64,000 bases of DNA from the IMG/VR virus record IMGVR_UViG_3300049215_000686, positions 1 through 64,000 of that record, one strand, 5' to 3'. Source of the stretch: a virus. The notes under the pieces were generated by a model. It had not been told where the DNA came from. It was given only the letters and a program-made list of their open reading frames with translations, and did no database searches. A program made the position numbers and the translations under genes. Shown here one piece after another: positions 37,350-60,676 of this stretch (positions are counted from its first letter, which is position 1; each line of letters starts with the position of its first letter).

Positions 37350-39137
37350 TTAACTTGTCGCCCGTTGGACAGCGATGTCATTGAGAACAAACTCAATTCC
37401 TTCAACCAATGTCACGGTGACTGAGGTATTAATTACGTTTCCATTGAAAGAAACCGTCAAGTCCTTGAATCCCTTGCCGCCCGTGCTTGCATCCGGAACA
37501 ATGATCCCGCTTGAGCGAGCCCCATCCAGAACACTCACCAACAGATTCTTCACAGTCTCAGGCGTAACATCGCTGTTTCGTTGACCGACGAATGTTTCCA
37601 TATTGAGACGAATCGAGAATGCCAACGTATCGGCAGCATAAAGTACGGCTGGACGATTATAAATCCACGCATTGAGGGTTTGACCGTAGGTGGAATTGTC
37701 CAATACAAACCTAAAACCACCGCCCGGAGCCCGCTCAACAAACGTCAAGTTCGCATCAATTGCGTCATCTGCCTGTGTTTCTGGATCAAAATCATTACTT
37801 GGAACGCTGAAACCAGAGATATTCGCCAATTTAAAAGTGTTGGGAAGACCAATAACCGCAGCCGCTTTCATGCCCGCATTGATTGTTGCCAGCATATGAG
37901 GCTGAGCCGTAACGAGTGCTCCAAACGAGTTTTGAACATCCACTTGTTGGAAATGGAGAGAAACTCGTGCCGAACCCAGCGCTGCGGATTTGATTTTCGC
38001 ATTCGCATAAGTCCCCTGATAAGCGGCAAATCCTTGACGCTCTCTTCGTCCTTTAACCGTCGAGTTTTGAACACAATGCGTATTAAGCGCAGCGTGAATC
38101 GAATCGATCGAATAAGAAGAAGCCGCGTCCGTAAGTCCATCGGTAATATCGCTTGCTGCGTCTCTTGAAAAAAGAGGAACAACAAAGTTCACTCGGACCT
38201 TTGAGAGAGCATCCAGACAGCCTTGAAAATTAGACTGAGAAGTTGCTCCAAGTGCACCGCCTGCCAAAGCCGTATTAACCATCGCATCAGGGATTCCGGC
38301 AGTTGCAGTCGGGATGAAGTCAACCAAAGCCGAAAGACCGAAAAAATCCACAATATCTTGAAGATCTTTCTTCACAACATAAGGAGCCGTTTTAATATCT
38401 TGGGCAGTCACGCGATCAAGGACCGTCAAAGGATCATTGATGTGACCATTCAAAACGCTCGCAACATATCCGGGCTGAGTATTTAAAAACTGAACCAATT
38501 GCCCAAGGGTGTTGAACATTGACTTAGAAATATTTAAATTCGAAGCCCCAGTTCCGGTAATCGCTGTAGTGATCGAAGTTGCCCCAATCGTAAGCGTTGC
38601 GGCTGAAACTCCGCCAGCGGTAACTTGGATTTGAATTGCTCCGTCATTTCCGATCGCGTTGGATACTTCTGAAATACCGTTCAAATTGTCCGTGATCGTA
38701 ATCACGTCTTGTCCGGCATTTTGATCAATTTCAATCGTAATAGCGTTTCCTTGCGCTCCCGGAACTTTGGCTTTCACCGTTCCATAAGAAGAAGGAAGAG
38801 CAAGACTTGCGGTTGTGGATTGATTCGTCTTTAAAGTAAGAAGAAGTTGAGCACCACCTAGGATTTGAGGGTCATTACTTGGCGTCAGAGCGATACGCGC
38901 TCCATCCACCAAGGCTCCGCTTCCATATTTTTGCTGAATTTGTGCAAACTGATCCGGAGACCAAGTCACTGAAGAAAGGCCAGATTCATCAGAAAAAGCG
39001 AGTCCCTGATCGGCCTCTCCGATGATCGCCATAACACCCAGTTGAGCCTGAGCCGCGCTGCCTTGTGCCACACGAATTCGTGAATAGGCGCCCGGTTTTC
39101 TTAGGCTCGCACCGGCGAAATTGATAACAATGCTCAT
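37350..39137 (-). CDS. Contractile tail sheath protein
   Basis: 595 aa; N-terminal F.G...RKPGAYS, AIIGEADQG; sheath C-terminal fold. Confidence 0.85.
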   Translation of the reverse strand: MSIVINFAGASLRKPGAYSRIRVAQGSAAQAQLGVMAIIGEADQGLAFSDESGLSSVTWSPDQFAQIQQKYGSGALVDGARIALTPSNDPQILGGAQLLLTLKTNQSTTASLALPSSYGTVKAKVPGAQGNAITIEIDQNAGQDVITITDNLNGISEVSNAIGNDGAIQIQVTAGGVSAATLTIGATSITTAITGTGASNLNISKSMFNTLGQLVQFLNTQPGYVASVLNGHINDPLTVLDRVTAQDIKTAPYVVKKDLQDIVDFFGLSALVDFIPTATAGIPDAMVNTALAGGALGATSQSNFQGCLDALSKVRVNFVVPLFSRDAASDITDGLTDAASSYSIDSIHAALNTHCVQNSTVKGRRERQGFAAYQGTYANAKIKSAALGSARVSLHFQQVDVQNSFGALVTAQPHMLATINAGMKAAAVIGLPNTFKLANISGFSVPSNDFDPETQADDAIDANLTFVERAPGGGFRFVLDNSTYGQTLNAWIYNRPAVLYAADTLAFSIRLNMETFVGQRNSDVTPETVKNLLVSVLDGARSSGIIVPDASTGGKGFKDLTVSFNGNVINTSVTVTLVEGIEFVLNDIAVQRATS

Positions 39138-40675: not shown

Positions 40676-41613
40676 GTGCCCGATCCCTGAGAGAAGATTT
40701 CATTAATTCGCTTCGCGAATTCATCCGTAACGTATTGCTCAACGTCTTTCATGATATGAACGCCATCAAATCCCGGATGAACCCATTTAGGCTTGTCATG
40801 AACTGCCGCAGGAACTCGGGGGTCAGTAGCCGTCCGCCAGGTTAAATAGCGGCTTTTCATGGAACCGCTGCCGGTCTCAAATTGCACCTTCGTCACCCCC
40901 GACAAAAGAGAACTGGGTTGCTTTTCGAGTTCAAGACGCTTTCGAATATCAGTTTGGAATTCTCGGTATTCCCATTGAGGTCCGCTCGGAGATTTTGTGA
41001 TACTCCAGACTTTGCCTTTAATAGGGCTTCCCGAAGAATCCAAAGAGATCTTTGTATCGTCGGGAGCAAACATTTTCTTCAAGCGCTTTAAGTCTGTAGC
41101 CAAATCCCCCTTGGTAGTTGCCCCAGGAGAGCCCCCCTGAACCACCACAGGATTCATGGGATGTCCTTTGGATGCAAAGGCTTGGACATGTTCAAAAGGG
41201 ATCTTGACGTAGCGACGGCCTGTTTTTTGAGAAAACTGCGATTTCGCGCCGCGAGCCAGGCCTGCCGCAATCATGTCAAAGCCGCTGTAGCCTTCTTCCA
41301 GGTAAACGGCGTCGTTCTCAAGCAAGATCGTCCAAATACCTTCGCCACTTTTAACTTTTTTAAGACCAGAAAGGTATTGCTGAACGGTTGAGTGCAATCG
41401 ATCGGAGGCAAGAGATTGCGCATGGTCGTAGGCATCATCCCAAACGTCTTTAACAACGCCTTGAACTGCCCCAAGATAAGGTGCGACCGCCGCCGAAGCC
41501 GCATCCGATAAGATTTTTTCCCAGCCACCGTCAGGCGAAAATTTAAATTTCACCCTCTCATTCTGATCCCACTCGGCTAGGACGTGACTTCTTTCTTTTG
41601 GCTTCTCAGCCAA
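40672..41613 (-). CDS. Neck/tail-completion protein
   Basis: RLHSTVQQYL, LEEG..GFDM, YVKIPF, TWRT, WVHPG motifs typical of large-myophage neck proteins. Confidence 0.6.
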   Translation of the reverse strand: MAEKPKERSHVLAEWDQNERVKFKFSPDGGWEKILSDAASAAVAPYLGAVQGVVKDVWDDAYDHAQSLASDRLHSTVQQYLSGLKKVKSGEGIWTILLENDAVYLEEGYSGFDMIAAGLARGAKSQFSQKTGRRYVKIPFEHVQAFASKGHPMNPVVVQGGSPGATTKGDLATDLKRLKKMFAPDDTKISLDSSGSPIKGKVWSITKSPSGPQWEYREFQTDIRKRLELEKQPSSLLSGVTKVQFETGSGSMKSRYLTWRTATDPRVPAAVHDKPKWVHPGFDGVHIMKDVEQYVTDEFAKRINEIFSQGSGT

Positions 41614-42617
41614 TCCTCATATTCTTGTTGCTGCTTTTGGGCCTCAGCAAACGACCCTTTAGGAAGGCCGTATTTAGGAATCCTTTTAGGCGCCTCAACT
41701 TGTTCACCCAGTTTGGGCTGCTCTTGAGGCTGAGAAATAACGCCCGATTCAATCAGTTTTTTCTCGGGAGTTTCATTCCCTTTTTGCTGAAGTCTTAAAT
41801 TAAGTTCTTTTTCGGTATTTTCATCCCAATAGACGACCTGATTCTTGCCCCGAAGTTTCCCGAGTTCTCGCGCCTGAATGCTTTGAGAAATAGTCTTTCC
41901 CACGCCGACAGTCACCGTTGCTCCCACTTGCTTAAAGTAGTTTTGTCTGAATTCTTCAATGTAATCAAGGGCGGCTTGTGGGACCTTCACTTGCCCTTCA
42001 TCGCCACCGGCTTCGATCACCGTTCCGCTATAGGTACCTGCCCATTGGATAAAAAGTCTCATCCCAAGATCAATCCGCTGACTGATTTCTTTTACTTTGG
42101 CTTCATCATCCGTGTATTGAGCACGAGCGACTTGATTTCCGATATTATCGCCGTCCATCGTGACATAATAAAGACCATCATTTTCCAGAACAACCTCAGC
42201 GTTTTGACGCTCAAGTTCCATGGCTTGTTGATGAGCCTGAAGTTCGGCACGCTCTTGGCGCTTTTGCTCGGCACGCTTTAAGATCTCTCTTAAAATCGTT
42301 AATGCGGGTTCAATTCTTTTTGAGACATCTTCGCCCGATATTTGCTCAGAAGCATTCGGAGTTGGAGCATTCGGCTGGGCTTCGGTGTCTTCTTTGCCAT
42401 CATCTTCTTTGGCTAAAATTTCAATTCCTTCAGATTTCACAAGCATCTTGTCAGAAAAACTTGCAAAAAGATCCGTCAACTGGGTGACATTAAGTCCAGC
42501 GGGAAGACCTTTAAGCAAAGCGTCTGGACCAATGAATTTCACTCCGCCTTCAGGGAGATCTTCCGCGCTCATAATAAACTCACCGTTTTTACGGTGAAAA
42601 ACCTTAATCTTTGCCAT
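41577..42617 (-). CDS. mCpol (minimal CRISPR polymerase)-like domain protein
   Basis: YVTMDGDNIG, VIEAGGDEG, TVTVGVG, GKLRGKNQ. Confidence 0.75.
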   Translation of the reverse strand: MAKIKVFHRKNGEFIMSAEDLPEGGVKFIGPDALLKGLPAGLNVTQLTDLFASFSDKMLVKSEGIEILAKEDDGKEDTEAQPNAPTPNASEQISGEDVSKRIEPALTILREILKRAEQKRQERAELQAHQQAMELERQNAEVVLENDGLYYVTMDGDNIGNQVARAQYTDDEAKVKEISQRIDLGMRLFIQWAGTYSGTVIEAGGDEGQVKVPQAALDYIEEFRQNYFKQVGATVTVGVGKTISQSIQARELGKLRGKNQVVYWDENTEKELNLRLQQKGNETPEKKLIESGVISQPQEQPKLGEQVEAPKRIPKYGLPKGSFAEAQKQQQEYEDWLRSQKKEVTS

Positions 42618-45315
42618 TGCCTTTAATCCTATCACGGATCTTGGCCAAAGTCTCTTTGACTTCGGTAAGCCTTCGTTTGTAAAGAATTATTCCAGCGCGT
42701 TTGGTCAAATCGTTTTTGAAATTCAAAATATCTTCTTCTTGCCACTCGCTTTTAAAAAAGATGTTGACCCCTTTTGCAGTAATCTCAATTCTGGGCTTTG
42801 GAAGATTCATATAGCAAATGCAAGCCTCAGATGAACGTTCACAGGCTTGGCATTCGGTTTCAGGATTTTCGATACCCGCTGATAATTCCATACCATGAAT
42901 CGTTTCTACGTGCTCTTTCAGTTGAGTCTGGAGTTTCTTAATTCGATCCGCAATCCCGGCAGAAGAATCGATTAATTTATTTTTGTATTCTTCAAGTTCT
43001 TTTGACTGTACTTTTGCCTCTTGATCCAGTTTTTGAGGAGTTGGATTCTCAAGCGCATCAACCAATTTTTCATGTTCCTGAACCAGTTCCTTTACTGGAA
43101 CTTCGATCGTTTCTTGTTTCTTCCCGGCCACAAGTTTCTCCTCGCTTCCGTACAGTTCCAGTTTTGATTGCAATTGACTCAACACCAACGGAAGCGTCAG
43201 TTTTTCAAATTGATGGATGATATGATTTTCATGCTCGATCCAGCCGCTATATAAATCTGCCAGTACTTTCCGGACTTTAATGGTCTTGCCAGCCAGTTCG
43301 AGGGTTGCTGTATCGTCTTTTTTAAGCGGAACAAGATGTTCTTTGCCCCAGTCCAAAAGTTCGGGCGCTACTGAGGCCATTGCCTGATCATGAGACTTAG
43401 GATCAGTCAGGGTTTCGCCGTCTCCTTGAGTGAAAGCCTTTTTCACCGAATCTTCTTGTTGGTCCTCATAGACAACCGTGGTTTTCCCGGCGTGGCCATG
43501 AACTAACAGACAATCATGAATCGAAGGATAAAACGCAAGCGATCCCCAACGAGTCAGCCAATTCATCCCGACCCAACCATTAGAAAAAATAACGCCCTCA
43601 GCCACTCGGCCAGTTCCACTTACTCCTGATTCATCTTGTTCGCGCCAAAGATAGAATTTCTTAATCTTGCCGCCTTCTTTAAGTTCTCCAGACAACCTTT
43701 CTGATTTTGAGATCCCTGAAAATTGCTCTTTAACGTCTTTAGGCACGCCCGTAGTCCTGAAAGTGGCCTCTTCGTGCTCTAATCCGCTCTTTTTTGCATG
43801 CTCATCAATCATCCCAAGAGCATGCTCCAAAGAAATCTTCTCTGAAGAAGGAACGAATCCTTCATCGCTCGGTTCAGTGAATTGACCCGTTAATGCGCGA
43901 TGCACGGCGTCATGCATAACTGTATTCAATTCCCGGTGAAAGTCTTCATCCGAGATCTTATGTCCTAATTTTTCAGAAATTTCTCGCTGTTTATGAGCAG
44001 CCAGCCACTCCCAATGCACCGCCCGCTTGGCTTCACGAGGAGACCGAACTCCCATTTTTCCCAGTCTTCGGCCTTCTCCGTATAAGTTGTTCACTTCCGG
44101 GTAAGTCAGCGCATGCGAAAGTTCATGGACTTTTCTCCAAGAACGTGTGAACGCCTCATTTTGAAAATCTCCGCCACTTCCCGGAGAAGGATCCCAAATC
44201 ATTAAATGTTTGGTGTTGTAGTTCTTGGCTTTTAGATCAGGCCGGCCATATTTGCCGCCCGCAAAGTAAGTTTTATAGCCATGCTCAGCGATCATGTGAT
44301 CAATTGCTGGCTCATGACGTTCAATCCCACCATAAAAGTTAAGATTACTTTTATGATTAGGTAAAATATGACCATAACGTTCAGCGATAGGCCGATACGA
44401 TGCCACGCCCTTTCCGGCGGCTTGAGCATTGTCAGAATGAGGTTCTTTAATAGGCTCTGGGCGAGGAGAACCGCGAGTACTTTGCGTAAAAGACTCGGCC
44501 TTTTCAATATTTTCAGCATCATCAGAATAAAATTCGGTATGCCCGTCGTGCCAATCATAGGCATGCGGATGAGCCGCGCCAGGAGCGTTTTCTCTCAGCA
44601 TCGAAGGAGGATGCCCGTGAATCACAACCGCAGGCTCTCCATTTTCTTGGGCTAGTGAAATCGTATCTTCGAGTTTTTCATCATCCGGATCTTTTACATG
44701 AACGCCCGGTAAATGATCATGAGATTCATGCATTGCATGAAATATATTGATGCCAAGAACCGATCCATAATGATGAGGATTATGGATTTCTTTTGTTTCT
44801 TTTTTCTTCTCATGAAATAGCAAATCAAACGGCTTTTCATCGGCCTTTTTGACCTCAGGCTCTTCGACATTCAGCCTAAATCGATGGCCAGACGGAAGTT
44901 GCGTATAAAACTCTTTTAAATGCGGTCCATGAGAAAAACCTTCACCGGTCCAAGAGGGCCTGCCATCTTGGAAAACGAGTTCGCTTTTATTTTCAGAATG
45001 ATGAAGAACGGCCTCTTGGCCATATTGCCATCCTATATTTTCGATCGCTTTTCGATGCTCTGGAATCCCTTCATGGGCTACCAAATAGGATTCTTCCGGA
45101 TGGCTATAATGACCCTTAACGGGAGTTGCCTCGAATCCGGCTTGTTTTAAGTCTTGAGCCAAAGAGGAATGAGCATTCGCATTGTGTTCAGGACTGTTTT
45201 GCGCAGAAACAAGAGAAAAATGCTTGGGGAGCCCAGGGAATGAAAAATGATCCGGATATGACGGATCATGCAGCGGATGAGTACTCGGAAGGGCTGGATT
45301 TATTTTCTCTGCCAT
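42604..45315 (-). CDS. Modular putative head protein: SAM-lyase-like, HEXXH zincin and SGVSGTG/HGH domains
   Basis: Motif-level alignment to T3 SAMase; HELSH..E; domains separated by phi-x-K-[S/A] linkers. Confidence 0.7.
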   Translation of the reverse strand: MAEKINPALPSTHPLHDPSYPDHFSFPGLPKHFSLVSAQNSPEHNANAHSSLAQDLKQAGFEATPVKGHYSHPEESYLVAHEGIPEHRKAIENIGWQYGQEAVLHHSENKSELVFQDGRPSWTGEGFSHGPHLKEFYTQLPSGHRFRLNVEEPEVKKADEKPFDLLFHEKKKETKEIHNPHHYGSVLGINIFHAMHESHDHLPGVHVKDPDDEKLEDTISLAQENGEPAVVIHGHPPSMLRENAPGAAHPHAYDWHDGHTEFYSDDAENIEKAESFTQSTRGSPRPEPIKEPHSDNAQAAGKGVASYRPIAERYGHILPNHKSNLNFYGGIERHEPAIDHMIAEHGYKTYFAGGKYGRPDLKAKNYNTKHLMIWDPSPGSGGDFQNEAFTRSWRKVHELSHALTYPEVNNLYGEGRRLGKMGVRSPREAKRAVHWEWLAAHKQREISEKLGHKISDEDFHRELNTVMHDAVHRALTGQFTEPSDEGFVPSSEKISLEHALGMIDEHAKKSGLEHEEATFRTTGVPKDVKEQFSGISKSERLSGELKEGGKIKKFYLWREQDESGVSGTGRVAEGVIFSNGWVGMNWLTRWGSLAFYPSIHDCLLVHGHAGKTTVVYEDQQEDSVKKAFTQGDGETLTDPKSHDQAMASVAPELLDWGKEHLVPLKKDDTATLELAGKTIKVRKVLADLYSGWIEHENHIIHQFEKLTLPLVLSQLQSKLELYGSEEKLVAGKKQETIEVPVKELVQEHEKLVDALENPTPQKLDQEAKVQSKELEEYKNKLIDSSAGIADRIKKLQTQLKEHVETIHGMELSAGIENPETECQACERSSEACICYMNLPKPRIEITAKGVNIFFKSEWQEEDILNFKNDLTKRAGIILYKRRLTEVKETLAKIRDRIKGNGKD

Positions 45316-46447: not shown

Positions 46448-47032
46448 TCATTTCTTTTTAGGCGGCTGGACTTCGGCAGGATTTTTAGGAACTTTCACCT
46501 GAGTCTGCTTAGCGGGCTTAACACCCATCAAGGATGCTTTATTGACAGTTGTCGTCGGAGGTGAACCCGGAAAACCAATGACCGAACCCAAAGTAGGTCC
46601 GCCCATGGCTCCATCCTTTTTCACATCACCCTTTTGAACACCCTTTTTGTCTCGAAGGGATTGCTGATGAGATGACATGTTTTCTGAATGAACCGGCCCA
46701 TCTTTGCTTGGTTTTTCTGAAAAAGGAACCGAGGTCGAAGGATTCTTTTGGGTTTTCTCAAAATTGGGATGCCAATTGCTTTTTACAAAACTCTCGGCAA
46801 ATGATTCTAGGATATGTTTTTTTACTGTAGGGACAATCGTTTCTTTAATATCCGGGTATTCAATGGGCTCAGGAACCTTGATCTCTTTTGGAGCAATTCC
46901 GCCGCCCTGCACCATGGGAGCCAATTTGTCGGCTACTTCCATCAGTTTGACCTGAACGGACTTTTCCAGCCGATCAAAGCCACTCAGCATTCCTTTGAAT
47001 TTTAGGATCTTTTCCCTGAAGCCATCGCTCAT
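46448..47032 (-). CDS. Low-complexity putative head protein
   Basis: LEKS, FVKS, VQKG, VNKA motifs. Confidence 0.5.
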   Translation of the reverse strand: MSDGFREKILKFKGMLSGFDRLEKSVQVKLMEVADKLAPMVQGGGIAPKEIKVPEPIEYPDIKETIVPTVKKHILESFAESFVKSNWHPNFEKTQKNPSTSVPFSEKPSKDGPVHSENMSSHQQSLRDKKGVQKGDVKKDGAMGGPTLGSVIGFPGSPPTTTVNKASLMGVKPAKQTQVKVPKNPAEVQPPKKK

Positions 47033-47547
47033 AGACCGTAACCATCCGTAGCCGAATTGCTCGGAGAGCCGCCCGAAGCGCTATATCCGGCATCATAAAT
47101 GCCAACAAAGTTAATTCGCTCATTGGCAATATCGTTTGCGTTCATAGACTGAGTTCGTCCCGAAAAACGACACCCCTTCACAGAAGCAATCGTTGCCTCA
47201 GTCACCCGGTCCTGAAGAACAATATTGATATCCTGAGCCGACGTAATAACATTCAAAACAGGCTCAAGGCCAATTTCAATAGAAGAAACTTCTGAATCAT
47301 TGCCAGTAACTTTTCTTGCAGCCAAATCTGCATCCGCATTAAAAGCATTTACGGGTATTACTCGGCCAATGCTGACATCGACATCATATGCCAACGTGTC
47401 GATAGCCGCAGCATTCATATCTCCCACCACATGGGTCGGTCGGACGTTATGCCGGATATTTACCGTGATATCGGTTGCAATTGCCAAAGTCTGAGAGCCA
47501 TTTTTAATAAGCCCTCTGGCTCCGCTTAGTAATTGTGGATTAGCCAT
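47029..47547 (-). CDS. Tail tube protein (paralogue 2)
   Basis: PQLLSGARG..IGRVIPVN..GCRFSGR..IANER. Confidence 0.75.
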   Translation of the reverse strand: MANPQLLSGARGLIKNGSQTLAIATDITVNIRHNVRPTHVVGDMNAAAIDTLAYDVDVSIGRVIPVNAFNADADLAARKVTGNDSEVSSIEIGLEPVLNVITSAQDINIVLQDRVTEATIASVKGCRFSGRTQSMNANDIANERINFVGIYDAGYSASGGSPSNSATDGYGL

Positions 47548-48815: not shown

Positions 48816-49637
48816 TTATGGACCAAAACTTCCATCCCGAGGTTCAGGCCGATCGGGCTCGCCCACTGAATCACTCGAATCAAATGGGATAAAATCTTTT
48901 CGACAAACCGCTAATTGAGGGAACCTTGCCGCAACATTATTTTCCCCAGGCGCACTTTGGGTTTGCGCCATCCGTAAATGATGGGGAAGATTTAAGACCG
49001 TATAAACCGGGCGCGTATAATAGTTCACCGAATAAATCGCTCCTCGATCTAAAACAGGATCCCATTCGGGCCGATCCGCAACCCATTCAATTCGACCATT
49101 TTTTACAACGAAATCCACACCCGGACGATATCTTTTCCCGGTATTATCGATCAAAAAATCAACGGTTACTGCCGGGAACTGAAGGCGATCAATCCCAGAT
49201 TGGGAATGCTCCACTCGCTGGTAATATCGAACCAAAGGAGCATCCGGCAAAATAATCTGATCGAAGTATTGAACATCCATAATCTCGCCTGATTGATTAT
49301 AAACGGGCACGATAATCTGGACCTGATCGAGATCCCATGTACCATTCATATTGAACTTGCGATCAATTTGGTTTCCCATAAAAGCGCCGATAAATTCGGT
49401 GGGATGATAATAGATAAACCCATTGAAACATTCATTACAGGCAGGTTGATGATCCGGCTGATAAAGATCATGGACAAACGGACAAGGAACCGGACGAGAA
49501 TGAATCATCCGAATGCCTTGCGCTTTTATGAATTGTTCAAAAATGGCAGGATTCAGCGTCGTTTCCAGAAGCGGCGTTTGCATCTGGATTTTAGTGATCC
49601 CCGGCAAAGAAATCTTAGGAATTTTTGGCTGGGTCAT
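48816..49637 (-). CDS. Head closure/neck protein
   Basis: PCP..ACNECFNGF, FDQI, YSVNY..PVY; family typical of SPO1/Twort-like myophages. Confidence 0.65.
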   Translation of the reverse strand: MTQPKIPKISLPGITKIQMQTPLLETTLNPAIFEQFIKAQGIRMIHSRPVPCPFVHDLYQPDHQPACNECFNGFIYYHPTEFIGAFMGNQIDRKFNMNGTWDLDQVQIIVPVYNQSGEIMDVQYFDQIILPDAPLVRYYQRVEHSQSGIDRLQFPAVTVDFLIDNTGKRYRPGVDFVVKNGRIEWVADRPEWDPVLDRGAIYSVNYYTRPVYTVLNLPHHLRMAQTQSAPGENNVAARFPQLAVCRKDFIPFDSSDSVGEPDRPEPRDGSFGP

Positions 49638-52017: not shown

Positions 52018-52842
52018 TTAAATGGGATTATCCCAAAGCGAAGGAGTTTTGGGTCTCGGCGGGATATAGATACGTTTTTTAGGAACAATCGGAGTTACGC
52101 CCTCAGGCCAAACCTCGATAGGAGTTCTTGATTTGACTTCAGTGCAAACCAAAGGAGCCTTATCGCTACAGCCGCAACCTGCATCTAAAAACAAATAATG
52201 CTGATAATAACGAGGAGTAAAAAGCCCCGCTTGCAATCGATGGATATGCCCACAAACTCCCACCAACTTATTGCCGTCTTTATCTTTATGATGCCGAGAC
52301 TTGCCTCGCTCATCTTGAATGTAGGTCCAAACCAGTTCACAAGGCTCTAATGGCCGATTTCTTAAATGAGGAGCGCGATCTTTATCTTTGGGGCAAGGAG
52401 CATGGCTAAAAAAGAATCCTTGCTCTTCATGAAATAGCCGTAAAGAGTCCATCCAATCTAGGTAATCATCCGGAATGGGGTTTTGTTTGCCAGGATTGGG
52501 GTCTTGCTCGCCTACAGAAAAACTGGCAAGCGTCTTATGCCCACCATTAGCAGGATGTGTCCAAAGCGAAAAATCATACCACCTTCCACGACGCAATGCG
52601 TTTAAACACAAAACTTCATGGTTTCCCTTAAGAACCACAACGGCGTGAGGATAGTCTCTTTCAAGAGCGCGAATCGTATCTAAAACGCCTTTAGAATCCG
52701 AGCCTCGGTCAATCATATCGCCCATAAAAATGAGTCGATCGGTCGCAAAATCAAGCAAATGCTCGTCTTTTAATTTCTTAAGGAGAGGCTGAAAAAGATC
52801 ATTTCGGCCATGGATATCGGGAATTGCGAAGATACGGAACAT
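52018..52842 (-). CDS. PPP-family Ser/Thr metallophosphatase
   Basis: DIHG, GDMIDRG, GNHE, HA, GH. Confidence 0.88.
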   Translation of the reverse strand: MFRIFAIPDIHGRNDLFQPLLKKLKDEHLLDFATDRLIFMGDMIDRGSDSKGVLDTIRALERDYPHAVVVLKGNHEVLCLNALRRGRWYDFSLWTHPANGGHKTLASFSVGEQDPNPGKQNPIPDDYLDWMDSLRLFHEEQGFFFSHAPCPKDKDRAPHLRNRPLEPCELVWTYIQDERGKSRHHKDKDGNKLVGVCGHIHRLQAGLFTPRYYQHYLFLDAGCGCSDKAPLVCTEVKSRTPIEVWPEGVTPIVPKKRIYIPPRPKTPSLWDNPI

Positions 52843-52870
52843 ATTCCCATTATACCGATGATTCGATCTT

Positions 52871-53227
52871 TTAAACAAGATCTGCGTTGTAAGCAAAAAT
52901 CCCGGCGGCGCTCCCTCGAACCCAAGCCTTGGCTCCGCTATTCAATACAAACTTCTCACCCGCAGCAATCGGGATTCCGTCAGTAGCGCCTGTTGGTGCG
53001 CTCATCGATTGGTCACCAAATGCGACAAAAAGAACACCGCCGGTAGAATTATAGAGCATGACCGGAGTATTTTCACCCACTCGAACCGCATTTGTAAGAT
53101 CTCCCTTGGGAGTCCAGTCCAAACCAGCCTGAGCCACCCGAATTACCGCAGATAAATCGGCAAAAATAGCCTGAAGAATGGTTCCAATATTGGTTATATT
53201 TTTAACGGGTTTTGTTCCAACGCTCAT
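52871..53227 (-). CDS. Small structural protein
   Basis: Start MSVGTK after RBS GGAG; YN....LFVAFG..DGIPI pattern. Confidence 0.55.
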   Translation of the reverse strand: MSVGTKPVKNITNIGTILQAIFADLSAVIRVAQAGLDWTPKGDLTNAVRVGENTPVMLYNSTGGVLFVAFGDQSMSAPTGATDGIPIAAGEKFVLNSGAKAWVRGSAAGIFAYNADLV

Positions 53228-54651: not shown

Positions 54652-57600
54652 CTATGAGCCGACTCGGATTGCCATCAAACTTCTTCCAACAATAGTAGAA
54701 GTTCCCGTACTCGTGTTCCATTGAGCCGTAATGACATTTGATCCGTTAACCGTAATAACCGCAGTGGATCGACAACCCAAATTTAGGTTATTTTGAGTTT
54801 TAAAGATCCTAATTGAATCAGAAATCTGGCTGGCATCAGAATAAATACTAAATGTAGTTAGTGCGTTATTCACAGAATTTGAAAAAACGCCCTCAAAAAA
54901 GACCACATAAGTTCCAGCAACAGGAGTCACGGTCATTGAAGCAATGGCAGAATTAGATGCAGATGATGTCGTTGCTGAACTCGTGGATGCGGCCTTATTG
55001 TTCGATATCACCGTATTGTGAACATGATCCGATCGTGCAAACGATGCAGCCGATCCTTGATCATTGGCTATCCCCGTGTCATTAACCGTCGCCGTCGGCA
55101 CATTGTGAACGTGTCCAGCATCCGCGTATTTATTGGTTGATCCTGCGGAAGCCGAAAGATCTGGAGTCAAATTATGGATATCGGAAGATGATCCAAACAT
55201 CAAATTGACATTTAAGAGGGTTCTATTATCAGAAAGAGCCGTAATCGCAGCACCATTGCTAGAAAAAATCGCTAATGGAACGGCGTTCGGAGGTGTGCTC
55301 GTTGATGTGGTTGATTTAATTACCCCATCTACGTCAACATAAATCCTTCCGTTTGTCGCACCGGTTACGACCGTAATCGATCCAGCCGAGATGCTAATAG
55401 TCGTTCCATTAATTCTTGCTTTTCCAGCGGTGTAATTGGCAACTAATCCTGCACCCTGGCTGACCAGCAATTCATTGGGACCAATTGTCGTATCGACAGT
55501 AAAATTTCCCGATCCATCATCGGTAACGGTAGTGCCTTTCCCTGGATCAATCGATAAGTCTCCAAACCGCTGAGTTCCGCCCGTTCCAGCCTTTAATGAG
55601 TGAACACCTTTATGAACATGATCGGATTTAGCGAGGGTCGTCGCTACACCTTGTGAATTTGCTGAGCCAATATCGGTAGGCGCTGCGGTTGGAATATTGT
55701 GAACATGATCCGCTCTTGCAAAATTGGCACTGGTTCCTGCGTTATTGGATTGGTCAGCGTTTTGGGTAGAAACAACACCCGATGAAATCGCGTGAGTATG
55801 ATCTGACCGAGCAAAAGAGGCTGCCGAACCTTGTGTATTCGTAGAATTTGCATTAAGGCCACCCGCTGCCGCTGTAGGGATGTTATGGACATGATCGGCT
55901 CTTGCGAAATTTATCGAAGATCCATCCGCATTCAGTTGATCCGGGGTTTGAGTCGCCGCCGCCGCAGTCGAAAATGTGTGGAGATGATCAGAGCGAGAAA
56001 AAGATGCCGCAACCCCATCTGATGAAGAAGCAGCGATGGTCTGATTTGCCGGGACTGCGGTAGGGACATTGTGGATATGGTCTTGTTGAGCAAAGGCGGC
56101 AGCCGAGCCTTGACTATTTCCGGCATTCGGAGTCAAAGCACTCGGAGCCCCAGTAGGAATATTGTGAACATGATCGGCTTTAGCGAAATTAATGCTCGCT
56201 CCCGCCGCGTTTGTTTGATTGGGAGTCTGAGTCGAAGGGACACCTGAAGCGATAGCATGAGTGTGGTCAGCCCGAGCAAACGAAGTCGAGGCTCCTTGCG
56301 TATTTGTGCTTGCTGAATTCAGCCCCACAGCAGCCGCCGTAGGCACGTTATGAATGTGGTCAGCCCGAGCCAAACTGGTTGAAGTTCCTGGAGCATTTGC
56401 TTGATCTGGATTTAATGTAACCGCTGCCGCTGTCGGAATTTCATCGGCTCCTCCGGGCTGATGCCTAGCGTGATGATTTTCAACGACAACGCCATTCGCT
56501 GTTCCTAGATTGGTAATATTGTGGGTACCGAGATTAAAATCTCCCGTTGCCACATGAGTTCCGTCATTTCTCCAATATTGCGGATGATCGTCACCGACCG
56601 TCAATCCAAGAAGATTCCGATGAAATGAAGCCGCCGATACCGAACTTGGAGCCGATCCTACTCGTGGTCGCTCATCGCGAATTTCGATGATATTGGTCAT
56701 TCCCTGTTGAACGATCAAGGAAGCGATAGGGACTACACCGTCAAGAAAGTAAGGAGGAGGCGTGGGTCTTGGGCCTTGCTCAGCCAGAGTTAAGGCAGTG
56801 TATTGGACTTGAGAATAAACCAACAAATATTTTTCATTAATTCCTTCGCCGACCAAATAGAGGACATGCTTTGCAAAATTGCCGGCGCCAATGGGAGCAA
56901 GAGTTCCTGTCCCATTATCAAAAAAAGCATTATCTACAACATTTTGTGAAACTTGAGAAAAACCGCCAGTTCCATTTTGATAATAAGCGGTCCATGAAAC
57001 CGCAGTAGCACCAGACGGCATAAACCGATTGGTCGCAAGATAATAAGTACCGGGAGTAACGTCTAACTGCCTTGTACCGTTTTCAGTAACAATAGATCCG
57101 GAAGAAAAAACACCCCCAATTGCGTTTCTGAATAAATCGTCATATCGATTTGAAGAATGTTCCGCATCTATACCGGAACTATCAATGAATTCTATCCCAG
57201 TCGAATTGGTTACAACCCGGCCCAAAAGAATAACAAGATGAGTGTCCGGGAAGGTCGAAGTAGTCGTTAATGCCCCGGTATTATCAAAAATAAGATAAAG
57301 AGCCTGATTGGGAGGAAGCGTAATTGAAATATCCCCCCAAAAGAATTGTCTGAAAATCTCGGGCTCAATCTCTAAATATCCAAATCCTGCCGAAATATTA
57401 ACGGTGAATCCTGACCCCGAAGTCAGTTCTCCTCCGTCCATCACGCCCATGGTGGCAGATTCCGTCCCTAATAGGGTGATATCAATGACATCTGCAATGT
57501 TTTTGGCGTAAAGAACTCTTCCGGTAATTACAATATCTCCGGTCTGTTCATCCAAAAACGCCATTTTTACATCGGTGGCAGAAGAGATCACCGAGATTTT

Positions 57601-58704
57601 GCTTCGGTTGGCGACTCCCTCAAAAGAAACAAAAGCATTAGGGTTATCAATCAAAACATCCCAGTTAATGGAACTTTCGATATGAACCGCGTCACAATCC
57701 AGTTCAGTTCCCGCAGCCGTTCCATCCATATGAATTCCTGTTCCGAATCCACGAATGAAAACGCTCAAAACTCGGCAGTGAGCCCCGTCACTGACCCTGA
57801 TACATTCGATCGAGTTTGCCGCCTCTACACGAAATTGCCCAGAATTTAATAAAATCTCAGAATTGGGACCAGTCGCCCAAAACAAATAATCTGGATAAGG
57901 CGCCTGAAGGGCTGTCGTCGTGCCAGAACGCATGACGATAGACGCTCGGAAAGTATTAGTGTTTCTAGCCAAAAAACCGTGATTAAATGAATAAACAGAT
58001 CCAAACCGACAATCAAACAAGAAAAGATTCGAGTTTCCTAAGAGGCCATCAGCGATAGCCAGCGTATCATTGCTTCCAAATCGAATTTGCTCAACCCAAA
58101 ACGCGGCCTGTGTACTTGCAAATGTGCTTTGATAAAAAATAGCAGCAAAAGAAGGTCCGGTAGCGCCTTCCAAAAGGCACTTACTGATCCCAGAGAAATC
58201 AGCCCCAGTAATCAAATGAGCATTCGGGTTAGCCGCCTGAATAATCGTCTGCTCCGGACCAGAACCCTCAACCCAAACATAGGATTTCATTTGAATGGGT
58301 TGTTCAACAAAAACTCCCGGACCCACTGAAATCAAATAAGGATTGGAAGGAGAGTTTCCTGTAATGCTCACCAAAGCATCGTTAATGGTCGCAAAATCTT
58401 GTGAATTTAAAACGGGGTTCTTAACGACCCTCAGAACCTTAGCGACCGGCGCTTGACCATTTCCAACAACCGTCCATTGACCAGAAGAATATTGCTCAAG
58501 GCGTCCGTCGTCCAGATTGTAAACCAAAAGCCCTTCGCTTGGAGTTGAGATCGCATCTCTTTGCGCGGTCGTCATTCTGGGGGCTAAAAACCCTTGCGAA
58601 GTGCTTTGAAGATTAAAAATTGCGGAAGGATCGTTAGAAGAACCGCCGATTCCAACGCCAGGCTTTGTATTGGGAGAAATTTCGTTGACAGTAATTTTAC
58701 TCAT
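54652..58704 (-). CDS. Tail fibre / receptor-binding protein
   Basis: GFLAPRMTTAQRDAI..GLLVYN module, pectin-lyase-like beta-helix start (TINDAL..VGPGVF), DDHPQY, HxH repeats. Confidence 0.8.
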   Translation of the reverse strand: MSKITVNEISPNTKPGVGIGGSSNDPSAIFNLQSTSQGFLAPRMTTAQRDAISTPSEGLLVYNLDDGRLEQYSSGQWTVVGNGQAPVAKVLRVVKNPVLNSQDFATINDALVSITGNSPSNPYLISVGPGVFVEQPIQMKSYVWVEGSGPEQTIIQAANPNAHLITGADFSGISKCLLEGATGPSFAAIFYQSTFASTQAAFWVEQIRFGSNDTLAIADGLLGNSNLFLFDCRFGSVYSFNHGFLARNTNTFRASIVMRSGTTTALQAPYPDYLFWATGPNSEILLNSGQFRVEAANSIECIRVSDGAHCRVLSVFIRGFGTGIHMDGTAAGTELDCDAVHIESSINWDVLIDNPNAFVSFEGVANRSKISVISSATDVKMAFLDEQTGDIVITGRVLYAKNIADVIDITLLGTESATMGVMDGGELTSGSGFTVNISAGFGYLEIEPEIFRQFFWGDISITLPPNQALYLIFDNTGALTTTSTFPDTHLVILLGRVVTNSTGIEFIDSSGIDAEHSSNRYDDLFRNAIGGVFSSGSIVTENGTRQLDVTPGTYYLATNRFMPSGATAVSWTAYYQNGTGGFSQVSQNVVDNAFFDNGTGTLAPIGAGNFAKHVLYLVGEGINEKYLLVYSQVQYTALTLAEQGPRPTPPPYFLDGVVPIASLIVQQGMTNIIEIRDERPRVGSAPSSVSAASFHRNLLGLTVGDDHPQYWRNDGTHVATGDFNLGTHNITNLGTANGVVVENHHARHQPGGADEIPTAAAVTLNPDQANAPGTSTSLARADHIHNVPTAAAVGLNSASTNTQGASTSFARADHTHAIASGVPSTQTPNQTNAAGASINFAKADHVHNIPTGAPSALTPNAGNSQGSAAAFAQQDHIHNVPTAVPANQTIAASSSDGVAASFSRSDHLHTFSTAAAATQTPDQLNADGSSINFARADHVHNIPTAAAGGLNANSTNTQGSAASFARSDHTHAISSGVVSTQNADQSNNAGTSANFARADHVHNIPTAAPTDIGSANSQGVATTLAKSDHVHKGVHSLKAGTGGTQRFGDLSIDPGKGTTVTDDGSGNFTVDTTIGPNELLVSQGAGLVANYTAGKARINGTTISISAGSITVVTGATNGRIYVDVDGVIKSTTSTSTPPNAVPLAIFSSNGAAITALSDNRTLLNVNLMFGSSSDIHNLTPDLSASAGSTNKYADAGHVHNVPTATVNDTGIANDQGSAASFARSDHVHNTVISNNKAASTSSATTSSASNSAIASMTVTPVAGTYVVFFEGVFSNSVNNALTTFSIYSDASQISDSIRIFKTQNNLNLGCRSTAVITVNGSNVITAQWNTSTGTSTIVGRSLMAIRVGS
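55610..56390 (-). repeat. Nine ~31-aa repeats FARADHxH within the fibre
   Basis: Counted in the translation; two more copies near 55020-55120. Confidence 0.85.
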
Positions 58705-59722: not shown

Positions 59723-60676
59723 TCAGCTGGAGGGATTTCCCGGCAGTATCATGACCGGCTGAAGACCCAGTTTTTGTAGCTGCTTCCGTTCAGCCAGTTT
59801 CTCAAACTCCTCCGGGCTGAAATAGCCCAGAGAAGAGTGGATGCGTTTCTCGTTATACACAGACTCAATGAATCGAGGAACAGCTTTCAGCACGTCCTCG
59901 AGCGTTTCGTACTCCGTCAGGTACACCTCCTCAGCTTTCAGGGTTTTGAAGAACGTCTCCGCGAAGGCGTTGTCGTAGCAGTAGCCCTTGGCGGACATGC
60001 TGGGCACGATCCCGCACTCGGCCAGTCGGCCCTTGTAGGCGTCGCACGCGTACTGGACTCCGCGGTCCGAGTGATGGATCAGTCCGGATGCGGGTTTCCG
60101 CCTCTGGATGGCGATGTTCAGCGCCTCCAGGCAGAGCTCCGTATCGATCTTCGCTGAGATCGCCCAGCCGACGACCCGACGAGAGAACAGATCCAGGATC
60201 GTCGCCAGGTAGACGAAGCCCGAGAGAATCCGGATGTAGGTGATATCCGCCACCCACACCTGGTTAATCCCGGTGATTCGTCTGCCTGGCAGAAGATTCT
60301 TGGCATAGCCGAAATTATGGTCGGGGTCGGTCGTCTTGATCTTCCAACCACGCCAAATCAGGGCTTTTAGGCCGTATTTCTTCATGATCCTGAGAATCCG
60401 TTTCTCGTTGATCGTGATGCCGCGCTTGCGTTCGAGCCATTCGTGGAGTCGCCGGTACCCGTAGAACGGGAACTCCCGTTGGGTCTCCTCGATCAGATCC
60501 CGAACGTCAGCGTCCGCCTGCGCTCGCTCTACCGGGTCCCTCTTGGGCCTGTAGTAGTAGCTGGAGGGGGCAAGGCCAACGGTTTTGCAGGCTTCTGATA
60601 CTGAGCCAAGTTCCGTGACGTGTAGATCAACGAATCTTCGCTTTTGAGCCGCTGTTTGAAGGCCTCCACTTTTTTT
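59723..60676 (-). CDS. IS3 OrfB DDE integrase domain (reached by -1 frameshift)
   Basis: YGYRR, WVADITY, HSDRGVQY, DNAFAETFF, YNEKRIHSSLG. Confidence 0.9.
   Translation of the reverse strand, partial: KKSGGLQTAAQKRRFVDLHVTELGSVSEACKTVGLAPSSYYYRPKRDPVERAQADADVRDLIEETQREFPFYGYRRLHEWLERKRGITINEKRILRIMKKYGLKALIWRGWKIKTTDPDHNFGYAKNLLPGRRITGINQVWVADITYIRILSGFVYLATILDLFSRRVVGWAISAKIDTELCLEALNIAIQRRKPASGLIHHSDRGVQYACDAYKGRLAECGIVPSMSAKGYCYDNAFAETFFKTLKAEEVYLTEYETLEDVLKAVPRFIESVYNEKRIHSSLGYFSPEEFEKLAERKQLQKLGLQPVMILPGNPSS

What the first reader, a model, noticed from the sequence alone, without database searches (positions are those of the whole stretch)
44860..45225. T3-type SAM lyase-like domain at the N-terminus of a 903-aa protein
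Residues ~32-150 align block by block with T3 SAMase as I recall it: FSLVSA (FYVLVSA), N...H..L..DL, GHY (GCY), PEES.LV (EEK.V.V), QYGQEAVL (EWEQDCVL), LVFQDG (LVYAKG), FYT..SGHRF (FT..GRRW). The Tyr, Glu and Gln positions implicated in catalysis appear retained. Characterised SAM lyases are small standalone early proteins, so a fusion in a late structural block is unusual.
Basis: partly seen in the sequence, partly recalled or inferred. Interest (0 to 1): 0.8.

Follow-up and report, generated by a model that had tools for sequence, protein, structure and literature searches.

The report
Phage multi-enzyme protein with SAM-lyase head
A 903-residue protein of an uncultured 157-kb phage really does begin with a domain folded like phage T3's SAM-destroying enzyme, joined to a metalloprotease-like core and a known anti-CBASS enzyme, so it is most likely a multi-tool against bacterial immunity, possibly carried in the virus particle.

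Summary
Residues 31-150 of the ORF at 42604-45315 (minus strand) pass Pfam's S-AdoMet_lyase threshold when scanned alone (31.5 bits, cut-off 28) and also match DUF3293. A confident AlphaFold model (pLDDT 92.8) has nine strands and two helices. It superposes on T3 SAM lyase (8bb1_E: Z 13.9, rmsd 2.2 Å, 118 residues), far above the next unrelated fold (Z 7.8).

The T3 and Svi3-3 substrate-binding residues are kept here (G68-x-Y70, E74, Q100-E101). They are nearly invariant in 67 copies of the domain.

The fusion is not a one-off. The domain sits on a conserved HExxH core in about 95 of 120 relatives from 150-180 kb uncultured phages. Those relatives swap in other enzymes: GGDEF-like, GNAT, PI3/4-kinase-like, NUDIX and topoisomerase IB. 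This protein also carries an Acb5 domain, a cGAMP-cleaving anti-CBASS enzyme, at residues 548-622.

Myxococcus phage Mx1, the nearest cultured relative, encodes the domain directly upstream of its tail sheath gene.

Best reading: a polyvalent anti-defence protein. It is probably packaged and cut at φ-x-K-[A/S] sites, but that part is inferred. Enzyme activity is untested.

This scan has noted the same family before in other Mx1-like genomes.

The parts
42604..45315 (-). Whole ORF, 903 aa plus stop (P0001): a polyvalent, multi-domain protein.
   Evidence: It is the only copy of the core in the 157-kb genome.
44866..45225 (-). T3-type SAM-lyase / DUF3293 domain, residues 31-150.
   Evidence: Pfam PF23780 31.5 bits and PF11697 29.8 bits. 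AF2 model pLDDT 92.8 with nine strands and two helices. Foldseek 8bb1_E E 6.5e-5. VIA Z 13.9, rmsd 2.2 Å over 118 residues.
45106..45114 (-). G68-H69-Y70, equivalent to T3 G55-C-Y57 and Svi3-3 G56-V-Y58.
   Evidence: hhalign. G is kept in 64/67 and Y in 60/67 family copies. Roles of the residues are from PMC7877911.
45094..45096 (-). E74, equivalent to T3 E68 and Svi3-3 E69, the key substrate-orienting glutamate.
   Evidence: hhalign. Kept in 66/67 copies. Mutational data come from PMC7877911 and 10.1101/2023.02.27.530186.
45013..45018 (-). Q100-E101, equivalent to T3 Q94-D95 and Svi3-3 Q104-E105.
   Evidence: Q is kept in 67/67 copies; position 101 is E in 52 and D in 9. Alignment.
44572..44865 (-). 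His-rich region of unknown fold, residues 151-248. It begins with a V-K-K-A motif at 155-158.
   Evidence: No family hit. The motif is conserved in 14 relatives.
43723..44571 (-). Conserved family core, residues 249-531. It starts with the near-invariant motif HPHxYxWHDGHT, and its folded part is zincin-like.
   Evidence: Alignment A2 of 69 sequences has 51% mean column identity. AF2 pLDDT is above 90 for about residues 300-530. PDB matches are only weak: ArdC Z 4.8, PprI Z 4.1.
44113..44127 (-). HELSH (H397-E398-x-x-H401), an invariant HExxH motif.
   Evidence: H158, E159 and H162 of A2 are invariant, as are E175 and E189. The motif lies in a long helix of the model.
43450..43674 (-). Acb5 (anti-CBASS 5) domain, residues 548-622.
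   Evidence: phrog_7499 E 3.5e-24. The precomputed hit is PF26761, named Acb5. tblastn hits fall in Streptomyces and Bacillus phages and Haloarcula viruses. R558, W586, H606 and H608 are invariant against standalone homologues. Function is from 10.1101/2025.07.12.664507.
42607..43437 (-). C-terminal region, residues 627-903: conserved start, a coiled-coil-like stretch and a Cys cluster (CxxC...CxC at 822-834). Function unknown.
   Evidence: It is shared with relatives that lack Acb5, such as P0010 and P0017. No usable Atlas or Pfam hit.
44842..44853 (-). φ-x-K-[A/S] motif 1 (V-K-K-A, 155-158), a candidate protease site after the lyase domain.
   Evidence: Position conserved in 14 relatives. 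Cleavage is inferred, not shown.
44497..44508 (-). φ-x-K-[A/S] motif 2 (I-E-K-A, 270-273).
   Evidence: The K is at least 90% conserved in A2.
43702..43713 (-). φ-x-K-[A/S] motif 3 (I-S-K-S, 535-538), just before Acb5.
43435..43446 (-). φ-x-K-[A/S] motif 4 (V-K-K-A, 624-627), just after Acb5.
   Evidence: Conserved in all 14 aligned relatives.
41577..42635 (-). Downstream gene for an mCpol (Cas10-palm-like) nucleotide cyclase. Its likely ATG is at 42617, overlapping the 903-aa ORF by 14 nt.
   Evidence: PF18182 mCpol 43.1 bits, cut-off 26.4. The same adjacency occurs in the P0002 contig. Start codon read.

Best explanation
Shown:
- Residues 31-150 are a T3-type SAM-lyase domain, a barrel of nine strands with two helices. 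The residues that bind and orient SAM in T3 SAMase and Svi3-3 are all kept.
- The domain is the first module of a modular ('polyvalent') phage protein. The protein also holds an invariant HExxH core and an Acb5 cGAMP-nuclease domain.
- The gene lies in a co-directional block between hits to virion structural proteins and the tail sheath gene.

Inferred:
- The module cleaves SAM to methylthioadenosine and homoserine lactone. This would starve SAM-dependent defences (type I/III restriction, BREX), while the Acb5 module destroys CBASS signals.

Inferred more weakly:
- The protein is loaded into the particle and cut after Lys at φ-x-K-[A/S] sites between modules, probably by the head protease. The pieces would then enter the host with the DNA and act before any phage gene is expressed.
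For: Homology and fold:
- Pfam S-AdoMet_lyase is over threshold on the domain; 54 of 67 family copies match it and 59 of 67 match DUF3293.
- The model has pLDDT 92.8, with nine strands and two helices. This matches the published description of T3 SAMase.
- 8bb1_E gives Z 13.9, rmsd 2.2 Å over 118 residues. The next unrelated fold gives Z 7.8. Foldseek gives E 6.5e-5.
- ESM Atlas neighbours are S-AdoMet_lyase and DUF3293 clusters, 90-100% viral.

Active site:
- hhalign against a T3-family profile pairs G68/Y70/E74/Q100/E101 with T3 G55/Y57/E68/Q94/D95.
- These positions are 90-100% conserved in 67 copies of the domain.
- Mutating their T3 and Svi3-3 equivalents reduces or abolishes activity.

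Anti-defence context:
- The same protein holds an Acb5 domain with R, W and H residues invariant against standalone homologues.
- Relatives of the core carry GGDEF-like, GNAT, PI3/4-kinase-like, NUDIX and topoisomerase IB modules.
- The lyase module occurs at the N-terminus, internally or at the C-terminus.
- Fusion of anti-defence modules is documented for Tad2-Acb4.

Virion link:
- In the window the gene lies between PHROG hits to virion structural proteins and the tail sheath.
- In Mx1 and in the P0059 contig the homologue is immediately upstream of the sheath gene or its likely counterpart.
- A 3667-aa Flavobacterium phage protein annotated 'structural protein' carries DUF3293 at 48.9 bits.

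Cleavage sites:
- Five φ-x-K-[A/S] motifs are positionally conserved in 14 relatives, and four of them lie in inter-domain gaps.
- In this genome the capsid protein has a single related motif, with Thr after the Lys (L-L-K-T), at residues 26-29. The scaffold-like protein has seven motifs of the φ-x-K-[A/S/T] form in 244 aa.
Against: - No enzyme assay exists for any DUF3293-branch member, and no paper in the library mentions DUF3293.
- The hairpin between Y70 and E74 is about 7 residues shorter than in T3. It is far shorter than the 10-12-residue T-loop of Svi3-3 and SAM-AMP lyase, so the pocket may differ.
- Profile searches of PDB sequences did not reach T3 SAMase, and the hhalign probability is only 36%.
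- The whole-protein Pfam score is 0.4 bits under the cut-off.
- Packaging is inferred from gene position alone.
- The count of five motifs is not enriched over shuffles: 163 of 2000 shuffles reach it.
- The zincin fold of the core is not confirmed (best Z 4.8).
- Acb5 acts as a homotetramer, so it would need release or oligomerisation of the large protein.
Confidence: 0.6

Rival explanations
1. The module is a lyase for a SAM conjugate such as SAM-AMP, the type III-B CRISPR signal, rather than for free SAM. It would then act as an anti-CRISPR like the candidate AcrIIIB4.
For: - SAM-AMP lyases share only the Glu and Gln with SAM lyases, and both residues are kept here.
- A phage SAM-AMP lyase is itself a fusion protein and does not cut SAM.
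- A Cas10-palm-like mCpol gene overlaps the 3' end of this ORF.
- Seven of 120 relatives fuse a GGDEF-like palm domain to the lyase module.
Against: - The closest solved structure by far is T3 SAM lyase. The PII-type trimeric Svi3-3 scores about half as high.
- No SAM-AMP lyase entry appears among the listed matches.
- The loop corresponding to the T-loop, which shapes the AMP site in SAM-AMP lyase, is nearly absent here.
Confidence: 0.15
2. The lyase module is active, but the protein is not packaged. It is a late cytoplasmic multi-enzyme that acts during or after assembly, for example by keeping progeny DNA unmethylated, blocking late abortive-infection signalling, or excluding superinfecting phages.
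For: - Nothing measured links the protein to particles.
- The promoter and terminator scan shows no separate regulation, so the gene is simply part of a late block.
- Enzymes such as a NinI-like phosphatase also sit in this block.
- The φ-x-K-[A/S] count is not statistically enriched.
Against: - The position next to the sheath gene is conserved in Mx1 and in distant relatives.
- A DUF3293 domain sits inside a giant 'structural protein' of a podophage.
- The module borders coincide with a motif close to the one at the capsid protein's N-terminus, and the same as several of those in the scaffold-like protein.
- SAM depletion is useful mainly at the very start of infection (T3 precedent).
Confidence: 0.3
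3. The domain is not catalytic. It binds a ligand (as a sponge) or a host protein such as SAM synthetase MetK, as T3 SAMase also does.
For: - A catalytically dead T3 SAMase still inhibits BREX through MetK binding.
- The wider fold class (PII-like, PstA) binds nucleotides.
Against: - The residues conserved across the family are exactly the substrate-orienting set.
- The T3 MetK-binding N-terminal tail (M1, I2, T4, E6, N9; invariant in A4) has no counterpart. The hhalign match starts at T3 residue 12, and here the domain is preceded by an unrelated 30-residue leader.
Confidence: 0.08
4. The resemblance to SAM lyase is a chance or purely fold-level similarity, and the region has an unrelated role.
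For: - Sequence identity to T3 is only about 20%.
- HMM searches of PDB sequences find nothing.
Against: Two Pfam models, a profile-profile alignment, a fold match well above background and conservation of the motif residues all agree.
Confidence: 0.02

Closest known systems
Phage T3 gp0.3 SAM lyase (SAMase; PDB 8bb1, 7ock; Pfam PF23780)
   Same: - Same fold of nine strands and two helices (Z 13.9, rmsd 2.2 Å over 118 residues).
- Same G-x-Y, Glu and Gln-Asp/Glu residues.
- Both are phage-encoded.
   Different: - About 20% identity.
- The hairpin between Tyr and Glu is about 7 residues shorter.
- No counterpart of the MetK-binding N-terminal tail.
- It is a module of a 903-aa protein in a late structural block, not a 152-aa first-expressed early protein.
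Svi3-3 SAM lyase and C. botulinum / phage SAM-AMP lyases (trimeric PII-like; PDB 6zm9, 6znb; PMC7877911, PMC12255297)
   Same: - Shared ferredoxin-like core and the conserved Glu and Gln.
- The phage SAM-AMP lyase is also a fusion protein.
   Different: - The fold match is weaker (Z 7.4-7.7, rmsd above 5 Å).
- Those enzymes build their active sites between subunits of a trimer and have a 10-12-residue T-loop.
- Here the loop is about 3 residues, and the extra C-terminal strands follow the T3 pattern.
Polyvalent proteins of phages and conjugative elements (Iyer et al. 2017, PMC5512222)
   Same: - Several unrelated enzyme modules in one polypeptide, built around an HExxH (zincin-like) hub.
- Modules are swapped between relatives.
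- Predicted delivery with the DNA.
   Different: - A SAM-lyase module is not mentioned in that survey.
- The core here matches no Pfam family and no solved zincin convincingly.
- The candidate cut sites resemble a head-protease motif rather than implying self-cleavage.
Acb5 anti-CBASS nuclease (Pfam PF26761; bioRxiv 10.1101/2025.07.12.664507)
   Same: Residues 548-622 match the family (phrog_7499, E 3.5e-24), with R, W and H residues invariant against standalone homologues.
   Different: - Characterised Acb5 proteins are standalone proteins of about 90 aa that form tetramers.
- Here the domain is embedded in a 903-aa protein and is present only in the seven closest relatives.
Myxococcus phage Mx1 WNM70344.1 (559 aa, hypothetical protein)
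   Same: - Its lyase-like domain is 31% identical to P0001 (E 2e-10).
- The gene sits directly upstream of the tail sheath gene.
- It has a C-terminal CxxC...CxC cluster.
- Mx1 is the nearest cultured phage (sheath 35% identical).
   Different: - The domain lies at residues 270-400, not at the N-terminus.
- There is no HExxH core and no Acb5 domain.

Membership tests
T3-type SAM lyase (Pfam PF23780 S-AdoMet_lyase) | Sequence match to the family model above the curated threshold. | tested here: met
   31.5 bits against a cut-off of 28 for residues 23-164. 31.2 bits in the six-frame genome search. 27.6 bits when the whole 903-aa protein is scored.
T3-type SAM lyase (Pfam PF23780 S-AdoMet_lyase) | A barrel of nine strands with two outer helices, as in 8bb1. 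| tested here: met
   The AF2 model has nine strands and two helices. Z 13.9, rmsd 2.2 Å, 118 aligned residues.
T3-type SAM lyase (Pfam PF23780 S-AdoMet_lyase) | Conserved substrate-orienting residues: G-x-Y, Glu (T3 E68), Gln-Asp/Glu (T3 Q94-D95). | tested here: met
   G68, Y70, E74, Q100 and E101 are aligned by hhalign. They are 90-100% conserved in 67 copies.
T3-type SAM lyase (Pfam PF23780 S-AdoMet_lyase) | Cleavage of SAM to MTA and homoserine lactone. | not testable with these tools
   This needs an HPLC, TLC or NMR assay of the purified domain.
T3-type SAM lyase (Pfam PF23780 S-AdoMet_lyase) | MetK-binding N-terminal tail, which underlies T3's second function. | tested here: not met
   The T3-family invariants M1, I2, T4, E6 and N9 lie outside the aligned region. 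An unrelated 30-residue leader precedes the domain here.
Trimeric PII-like SAM / SAM-AMP lyases (Svi3-3 type) | Homotrimer with active sites between subunits. | tested here: inconclusive
   The three-copy complex prediction gave no verdict. The fold match to 6znb and 6zm9 is only Z 7.4-7.7.
Trimeric PII-like SAM / SAM-AMP lyases (Svi3-3 type) | T-loop of 10-12 residues ending in the catalytic Glu. | tested here: not met
   The turn between strands at model residues 40-47 and 51-58 is about 3 residues. There is a 7-residue deletion relative to T3.
DUF3293 (Pfam PF11697) | Sequence match above the curated threshold. | tested here: met
   26.4 bits (whole protein) and 29.8 bits (domain) against a cut-off of 25. 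59 of 67 family copies match.
Polyvalent proteins (Iyer et al. 2017) | Two or more unrelated effector domains in one phage polypeptide, with modules shuffled among relatives. | tested here: met
   This protein holds a SAM-lyase module, an HExxH core and Acb5. Relatives carry topoisomerase IB, GNAT, PI3/4-kinase, NUDIX and GGDEF-like modules.
Polyvalent proteins (Iyer et al. 2017) | Zincin-like metallopeptidase hub. | tested here: inconclusive
   HExxH and downstream Glu residues are invariant. The helix-strand order fits the zincin description. The best PDB matches are weak: ArdC Z 4.8, PprI Z 4.1, Zn-peptidase 3c37 E 0.23.
Polyvalent proteins (Iyer et al. 2017) | Delivery into the host with the DNA. 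| not testable with these tools
   Only gene position and the motif pattern bear on this.
Acb5 (Pfam PF26761) | Sequence match to the family, with the pocket residues (R10, W38, H61 of Acb5A) retained. | tested here: met
   phrog_7499 E 3.5e-24. Precomputed PF26761 hit. R558, W586, H606 and H608 are invariant in an alignment with Samisti12 gp118, Tsamsa gp77 and SH1 ORF8. The R-to-W spacing of 28 equals that of Acb5A. Mapping to Acb5A numbering is inferred from this spacing.
Acb5 (Pfam PF26761) | Homotetramer that cleaves 3'3'-cGAMP. | not tested

The most novel reading that the evidence does not exclude
The lyase module and the phage's own palm-domain nucleotide synthase form a functional pair. 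The synthase is mCpol, encoded by the overlapping downstream gene here, and it is a fused GGDEF-like domain in 7 of 120 relatives. Delivered from the capsid as pre-made, protease-released enzymes together with Acb5, the pair would make, convert or erase a SAM-derived or cyclic nucleotide signal. This would rewrite host immune signalling in the first seconds of infection, before any phage gene is expressed.
Probability: 0.1. Interest if true: 0.85.

Novelty: new variant of a known kind. Interest (0 to 1): 0.6.

Why it matters
SAM lyase is a classic phage counter-defence, but it is known only as a small, first-expressed early protein. Here the same enzyme type is a swappable module of large late proteins in a widespread group of uncultured 150-180 kb phages related to Myxococcus phage Mx1.

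- The domain is found in 3061 protein clusters at 50% identity.
- In this protein it is combined with a proven anti-CBASS enzyme family.

If the protein is packaged and cut as inferred, the phage would bring ready-made enzymes against SAM-dependent restriction/BREX and against CBASS. That would remove the time window in which those defences act.

The work also gives a concrete, testable function for DUF3293. It points to Mx1 as a cultured system in which packaging and cleavage can be measured.

Tried and rejected
- Homotrimer prediction of the domain (three copies): no verdict, so it is not used either way.
- PDB sequence searches with the single domain and with the 67-sequence profile: no SAM-lyase hit. 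Only the fold search and Pfam reached it.
- hhalign against the single T3 sequence: E 0.04, too weak alone. It improved to 3.7e-4 with a T3-family profile.
- Core domain:
  - the PDB profile search found nothing;
  - Foldseek and VIA-wide gave only weak zincin-like rows;
  - tblastn against 50,697 phage records gave no match;
  - the scan of GTDB genomes found only four MAG contigs that look like mis-binned phage, so there is no host clue.
- C-terminal region: no usable Atlas feature hit. The structural neighbours (LPD11, LPD16) have TM about 0.2 and are not evidence.
- Pfam Peptidase_S78 and HK97 Phage_capsid models did not find this phage's protease or capsid gene. The Mx1 proteins did.
- Promoter and terminator scan of 39-49 kb: counts equal to shuffles.
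- φ-x-K-[A/S] enrichment in the protein: 5 observed against a mean of 2.35 in shuffles, and 163 of 2000 shuffles reach 5. This is not significant; only position and conservation are suggestive.
- Pairwise comparison of the window's mCpol with the fused GGDEF-like domains: at best E 0.003 around the GGDE motif. They share a palm-domain class, and orthology is not shown.
- Cluster look-up for source names: none given.
- Literature:
  - DUF3293 is in 0 papers;
  - the polyvalent-protein survey does not mention SAMase;
  - no paper links SAM lyase to virion or polyvalent proteins;
  - there is no paper on the Mx1 genome.
Full report
**What is at the coordinates.**
The finding lies in a 903-aa ORF on the minus strand (42604-45315). 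Coordinates 44860-45225 are residues 31-152. The window is the first 64 kb of a 157-kb IMG/VR virus record that CheckV estimates to be 96% complete.

**Is it a SAM-lyase domain?**
- **Pfam.** Two overlapping models hit residues 37-113: S-AdoMet_lyase (PF23780) and DUF3293 (PF11697). On the whole protein the former is 0.4 bits below its cut-off. On the isolated domain it scores 31.5 bits against 28, and DUF3293 scores 29.8 against 25. PHROG 2226, to which the domain also matches (E 9e-5), is labelled 'SAM-dependent methyltransferase'. T3 gene 0.3, the SAMase gene, carries the same label in the T3 record.
- **Family alignment.** I collected 67 copies of the domain from relatives (alignment A1).
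- **Model.** The AlphaFold model has mean pLDDT 92.8, with nine strands and two helices.
- **Fold searches.** Foldseek's best PDB hits are T3 SAM lyase (8bb1_E, E 6.5e-5, TM 0.62; then 7ock), followed by Svi3-3. VIA-align gives 8bb1_E Z 13.9, rmsd 2.2 Å over 118 residues. The next unrelated fold scores Z 7.8 and Svi3-3 scores 7.4-7.7. ESM Atlas neighbours are viral S-AdoMet_lyase and DUF3293 clusters with TM 0.76-0.78.
- **Oligomeric state of T3.** The T3 enzyme is described as a monomeric nine-stranded barrel with two helices, unlike the Svi3-3 trimer (10.1101/2023.02.27.530186). This is the architecture of the model. A monomeric enzyme can also be placed anywhere in a fusion protein.

**Active-site residues.**
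- The literature names these as the conserved substrate-orienting residues: Svi3-3 G56, Y58, E69, Q104 and E105 (PMC7877911), and T3 E68, Q94 and D95.
- A profile of 19 T3-like SAMases (A4) aligns to A1 with E 3.7e-4 over 84 columns. It pairs G68/Y70/E74/Q100/E101 of this protein with T3 G55/Y57/E68/Q94/D95.
- In A1 these positions are conserved as follows: G 64/67, Y 60/67, E 66/67, Q 67/67, and E/D 61/67.
- Two differences stand out. The hairpin between Tyr and Glu is 7 residues shorter than in T3. The T3 N-terminal tail that binds MetK has no counterpart.
- I therefore regard homology and fold as settled. Lyase chemistry on a sulfonium substrate is likely but untested.

**The rest of the protein.**
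- **Core.** Residues 249-531 are the conserved core of a large family (A2, 69 sequences, 51% mean column identity). It has invariant H397-E398-x-x-H401 and downstream Glu residues. The model is confident for about residues 300-530. Its order of helix, strands, HExxH helix and following helix fits the zincin description in PMC5512222. PDB matches are weak (ArdC Z 4.8, PprI Z 4.1), so zincin membership is inconclusive.
- **Acb5.** Residues 548-622 match phrog_7499 (E 3.5e-24). The precomputed Pfam hit PF26761 is named Acb5. [quoted passage not shown] It was reported in phages of Streptomyces, Mycobacterium and Bacillus and in Haloarcula viruses (10.1101/2025.07.12.664507). My tblastn hits are in Streptomyces and Bacillus phages and Haloarcula viruses. 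An alignment with three standalone homologues shows invariant R558, W586, H606 and H608. The R-to-W spacing equals that of the mutationally essential R10 and W38 of Acb5A. Only the seven closest relatives have this module.
- **C-terminus.** Residues 627-903 (coiled-coil-like, with a Cys cluster) have no assignable family.

**The family.**
- A search with the full protein found 252 relatives of 500-1580 aa, mostly on contigs of 120-180 kb.
- About 95 of the best 120 carry the lyase-like domain. It is usually N-terminal. It is C-terminal in P0025 and P0026, and internal, after a GGDEF-like domain, in P0027, P0046 and P0080.
- Other modules on the same core include topoisomerase IB, GNAT acetyltransferases, PI3/PI4-kinase-like domains, NUDIX, DUF6943 and a GGDEF-like palm domain in 7 of 120.
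- An exhaustive profile search finds the domain in 3061 clusters at 50% identity (955 at E ≤ 1e-10). Most of the best matches are proteins of 500-2000 aa.
- This is the architecture called polyvalent proteins (PMC5512222). That paper does not mention a SAMase module, and I found no paper that does.

**Cultured relatives.**
- The tail sheath is 35% identical to that of Myxococcus phage Mx1.
- Mx1 encodes a 559-aa protein with the lyase-like domain. It is 31% identical to P0001 (E 2e-10), and the G-x-Y, Glu and Q-E residues are kept. The gene lies immediately upstream of Mx1's sheath gene.
- A distant relative's contig has the same order: polyvalent protein, an 841-aa protein, then a Phi812-type tail tube.
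- Flavobacterium podophages of the elemo group carry DUF3293 (48.9 bits) inside a 3667-aa protein annotated 'structural protein'. BFVD adds a 769-aa protein of cyanophage P-TIM40 and an ART-PolyVal protein.
- In the window the gene sits between PHROG hits to virion structural proteins (47029-47547 and 48816-49637) and the sheath gene (37350-39137). All are on the minus strand.

**Processing hypothesis.**
- Earlier notes of this scan on other Mx1-like genomes proposed that such proteins are cut at L-x-K|[S/A] sites by the head protease. I tested this partly.
- The protein has five φ-x-K-[A/S] motifs, at residues 155, 270, 535, 624 and 853. Each is positionally conserved in 14 relatives while the flanking linker residues vary. 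Four of them fall in the gaps between the modelled domains.
- Cuts at 537|538 and 626|627 would release an 89-residue Acb5 piece. That is about the size of standalone Acb5 proteins, which must tetramerise.
- I located this phage's capsid protein and protease with the Mx1 proteins. The capsid protein has a single φ-x-K-[A/S/T] motif (L-L-K-T) at residues 26-29. The acidic scaffold-like protein has seven such motifs in 244 aa.
- Against this, the motif count in P0001 is not enriched over shuffles (163 of 2000 reach it), and no cleavage has been measured. I treat packaging and dicing as a reasonable inference with odds of about 45%.

**Neighbour.**
The downstream gene (41577-42635, likely ATG at 42617, overlapping by 14 nt) encodes an mCpol / Cas10-palm-like cyclase (43.1 bits). 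The adjacency recurs in the closest relative's contig. Together with the GGDEF-like fusions, this hints at a link between a palm-domain nucleotide synthase and the lyase module. Direct similarity between the two palm domains is weak. Because Cas10 makes SAM-AMP and relatives of SAM lyase degrade it (PMC12255297), a SAM-conjugate substrate remains a live alternative.

**Verdict.**
- The protein is best described as a polyvalent anti-defence protein whose first module is a T3-type SAM lyase.
- It is a new variant of known kinds (SAM lyase, polyvalent proteins, Acb5), not a new category.
- This scan has already noted the same family on other genomes.

Noticed in passing
window 41577-42635 (minus): A gene for an mCpol (minimal CRISPR polymerase, Cas10-palm-like) domain, PF18182 43.1 bits. 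Its ATG at 42617 overlaps the 903-aa ORF by 14 nt. The same gene pair occurs in the contig of the closest relative, P0002.
   Followed up: partly
window 44536-44571 (minus), residues 249-260: The motif HPHxYxWHDGHT is at least 90% conserved in 69 family members, yet AlphaFold predicts it to be disordered (pLDDT below 50). Shorter HPH-type motifs recur at residues 13-23 and 180-185. It may be a docking, metal-binding or recognition motif, but no explanation was tested.
   Followed up: no
G000:C1:75419-76852 and 76934-80416 (outside the window): I located the capsid protein (33% identical to the Mx1 capsid protein) and the head protease (39% identical to the Mx1 protease N-terminus). The capsid protein has one L-L-K-T motif at residues 26-29. 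A 244-aa acidic protein between the two genes has seven φ-x-K-[A/S/T] motifs.
   Followed up: partly
L016 (Myxococcus phage Mx1, 13002-30710): The Mx1 head module contains a 1239-aa 'prohead protease', a 'nucleotide cyclase', a 1479-aa 'NUDIX hydrolase' and a 619-aa 'kinase'. Large enzyme-bearing proteins therefore fill the head-to-tail block of the cultured relative too.
   Followed up: no
L015 (Flavobacterium phage vB_FspP_elemoA_1-9A, 2-11005): A single 3667-aa ORF annotated 'structural protein' carries a DUF3293 domain at residues 1296-1365 (48.9 bits). No other Pfam family was detected in it.
   Followed up: partly
window 59723-60802 (minus): An ORF with a strong match to a PHROG family annotated 'transposase' (phrog_157, E 4.8e-96) lies inside the phage genome. 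It sits in a stretch of raised G+C (0.50 against about 0.45).
   Followed up: no
window 52018-52896 and 54652-58704 (minus): A NinI-like Ser/Thr phosphatase (phrog_246, E 2.7e-33) and a 1350-aa ORF with no Pfam or PHROG match lie in the same co-directional block, upstream of the tail-fibre-like gene.
   Followed up: no
window 10001-12000: This is the highest G+C in the window (0.529 against about 0.44-0.46 elsewhere). I did not examine it.
   Followed up: no
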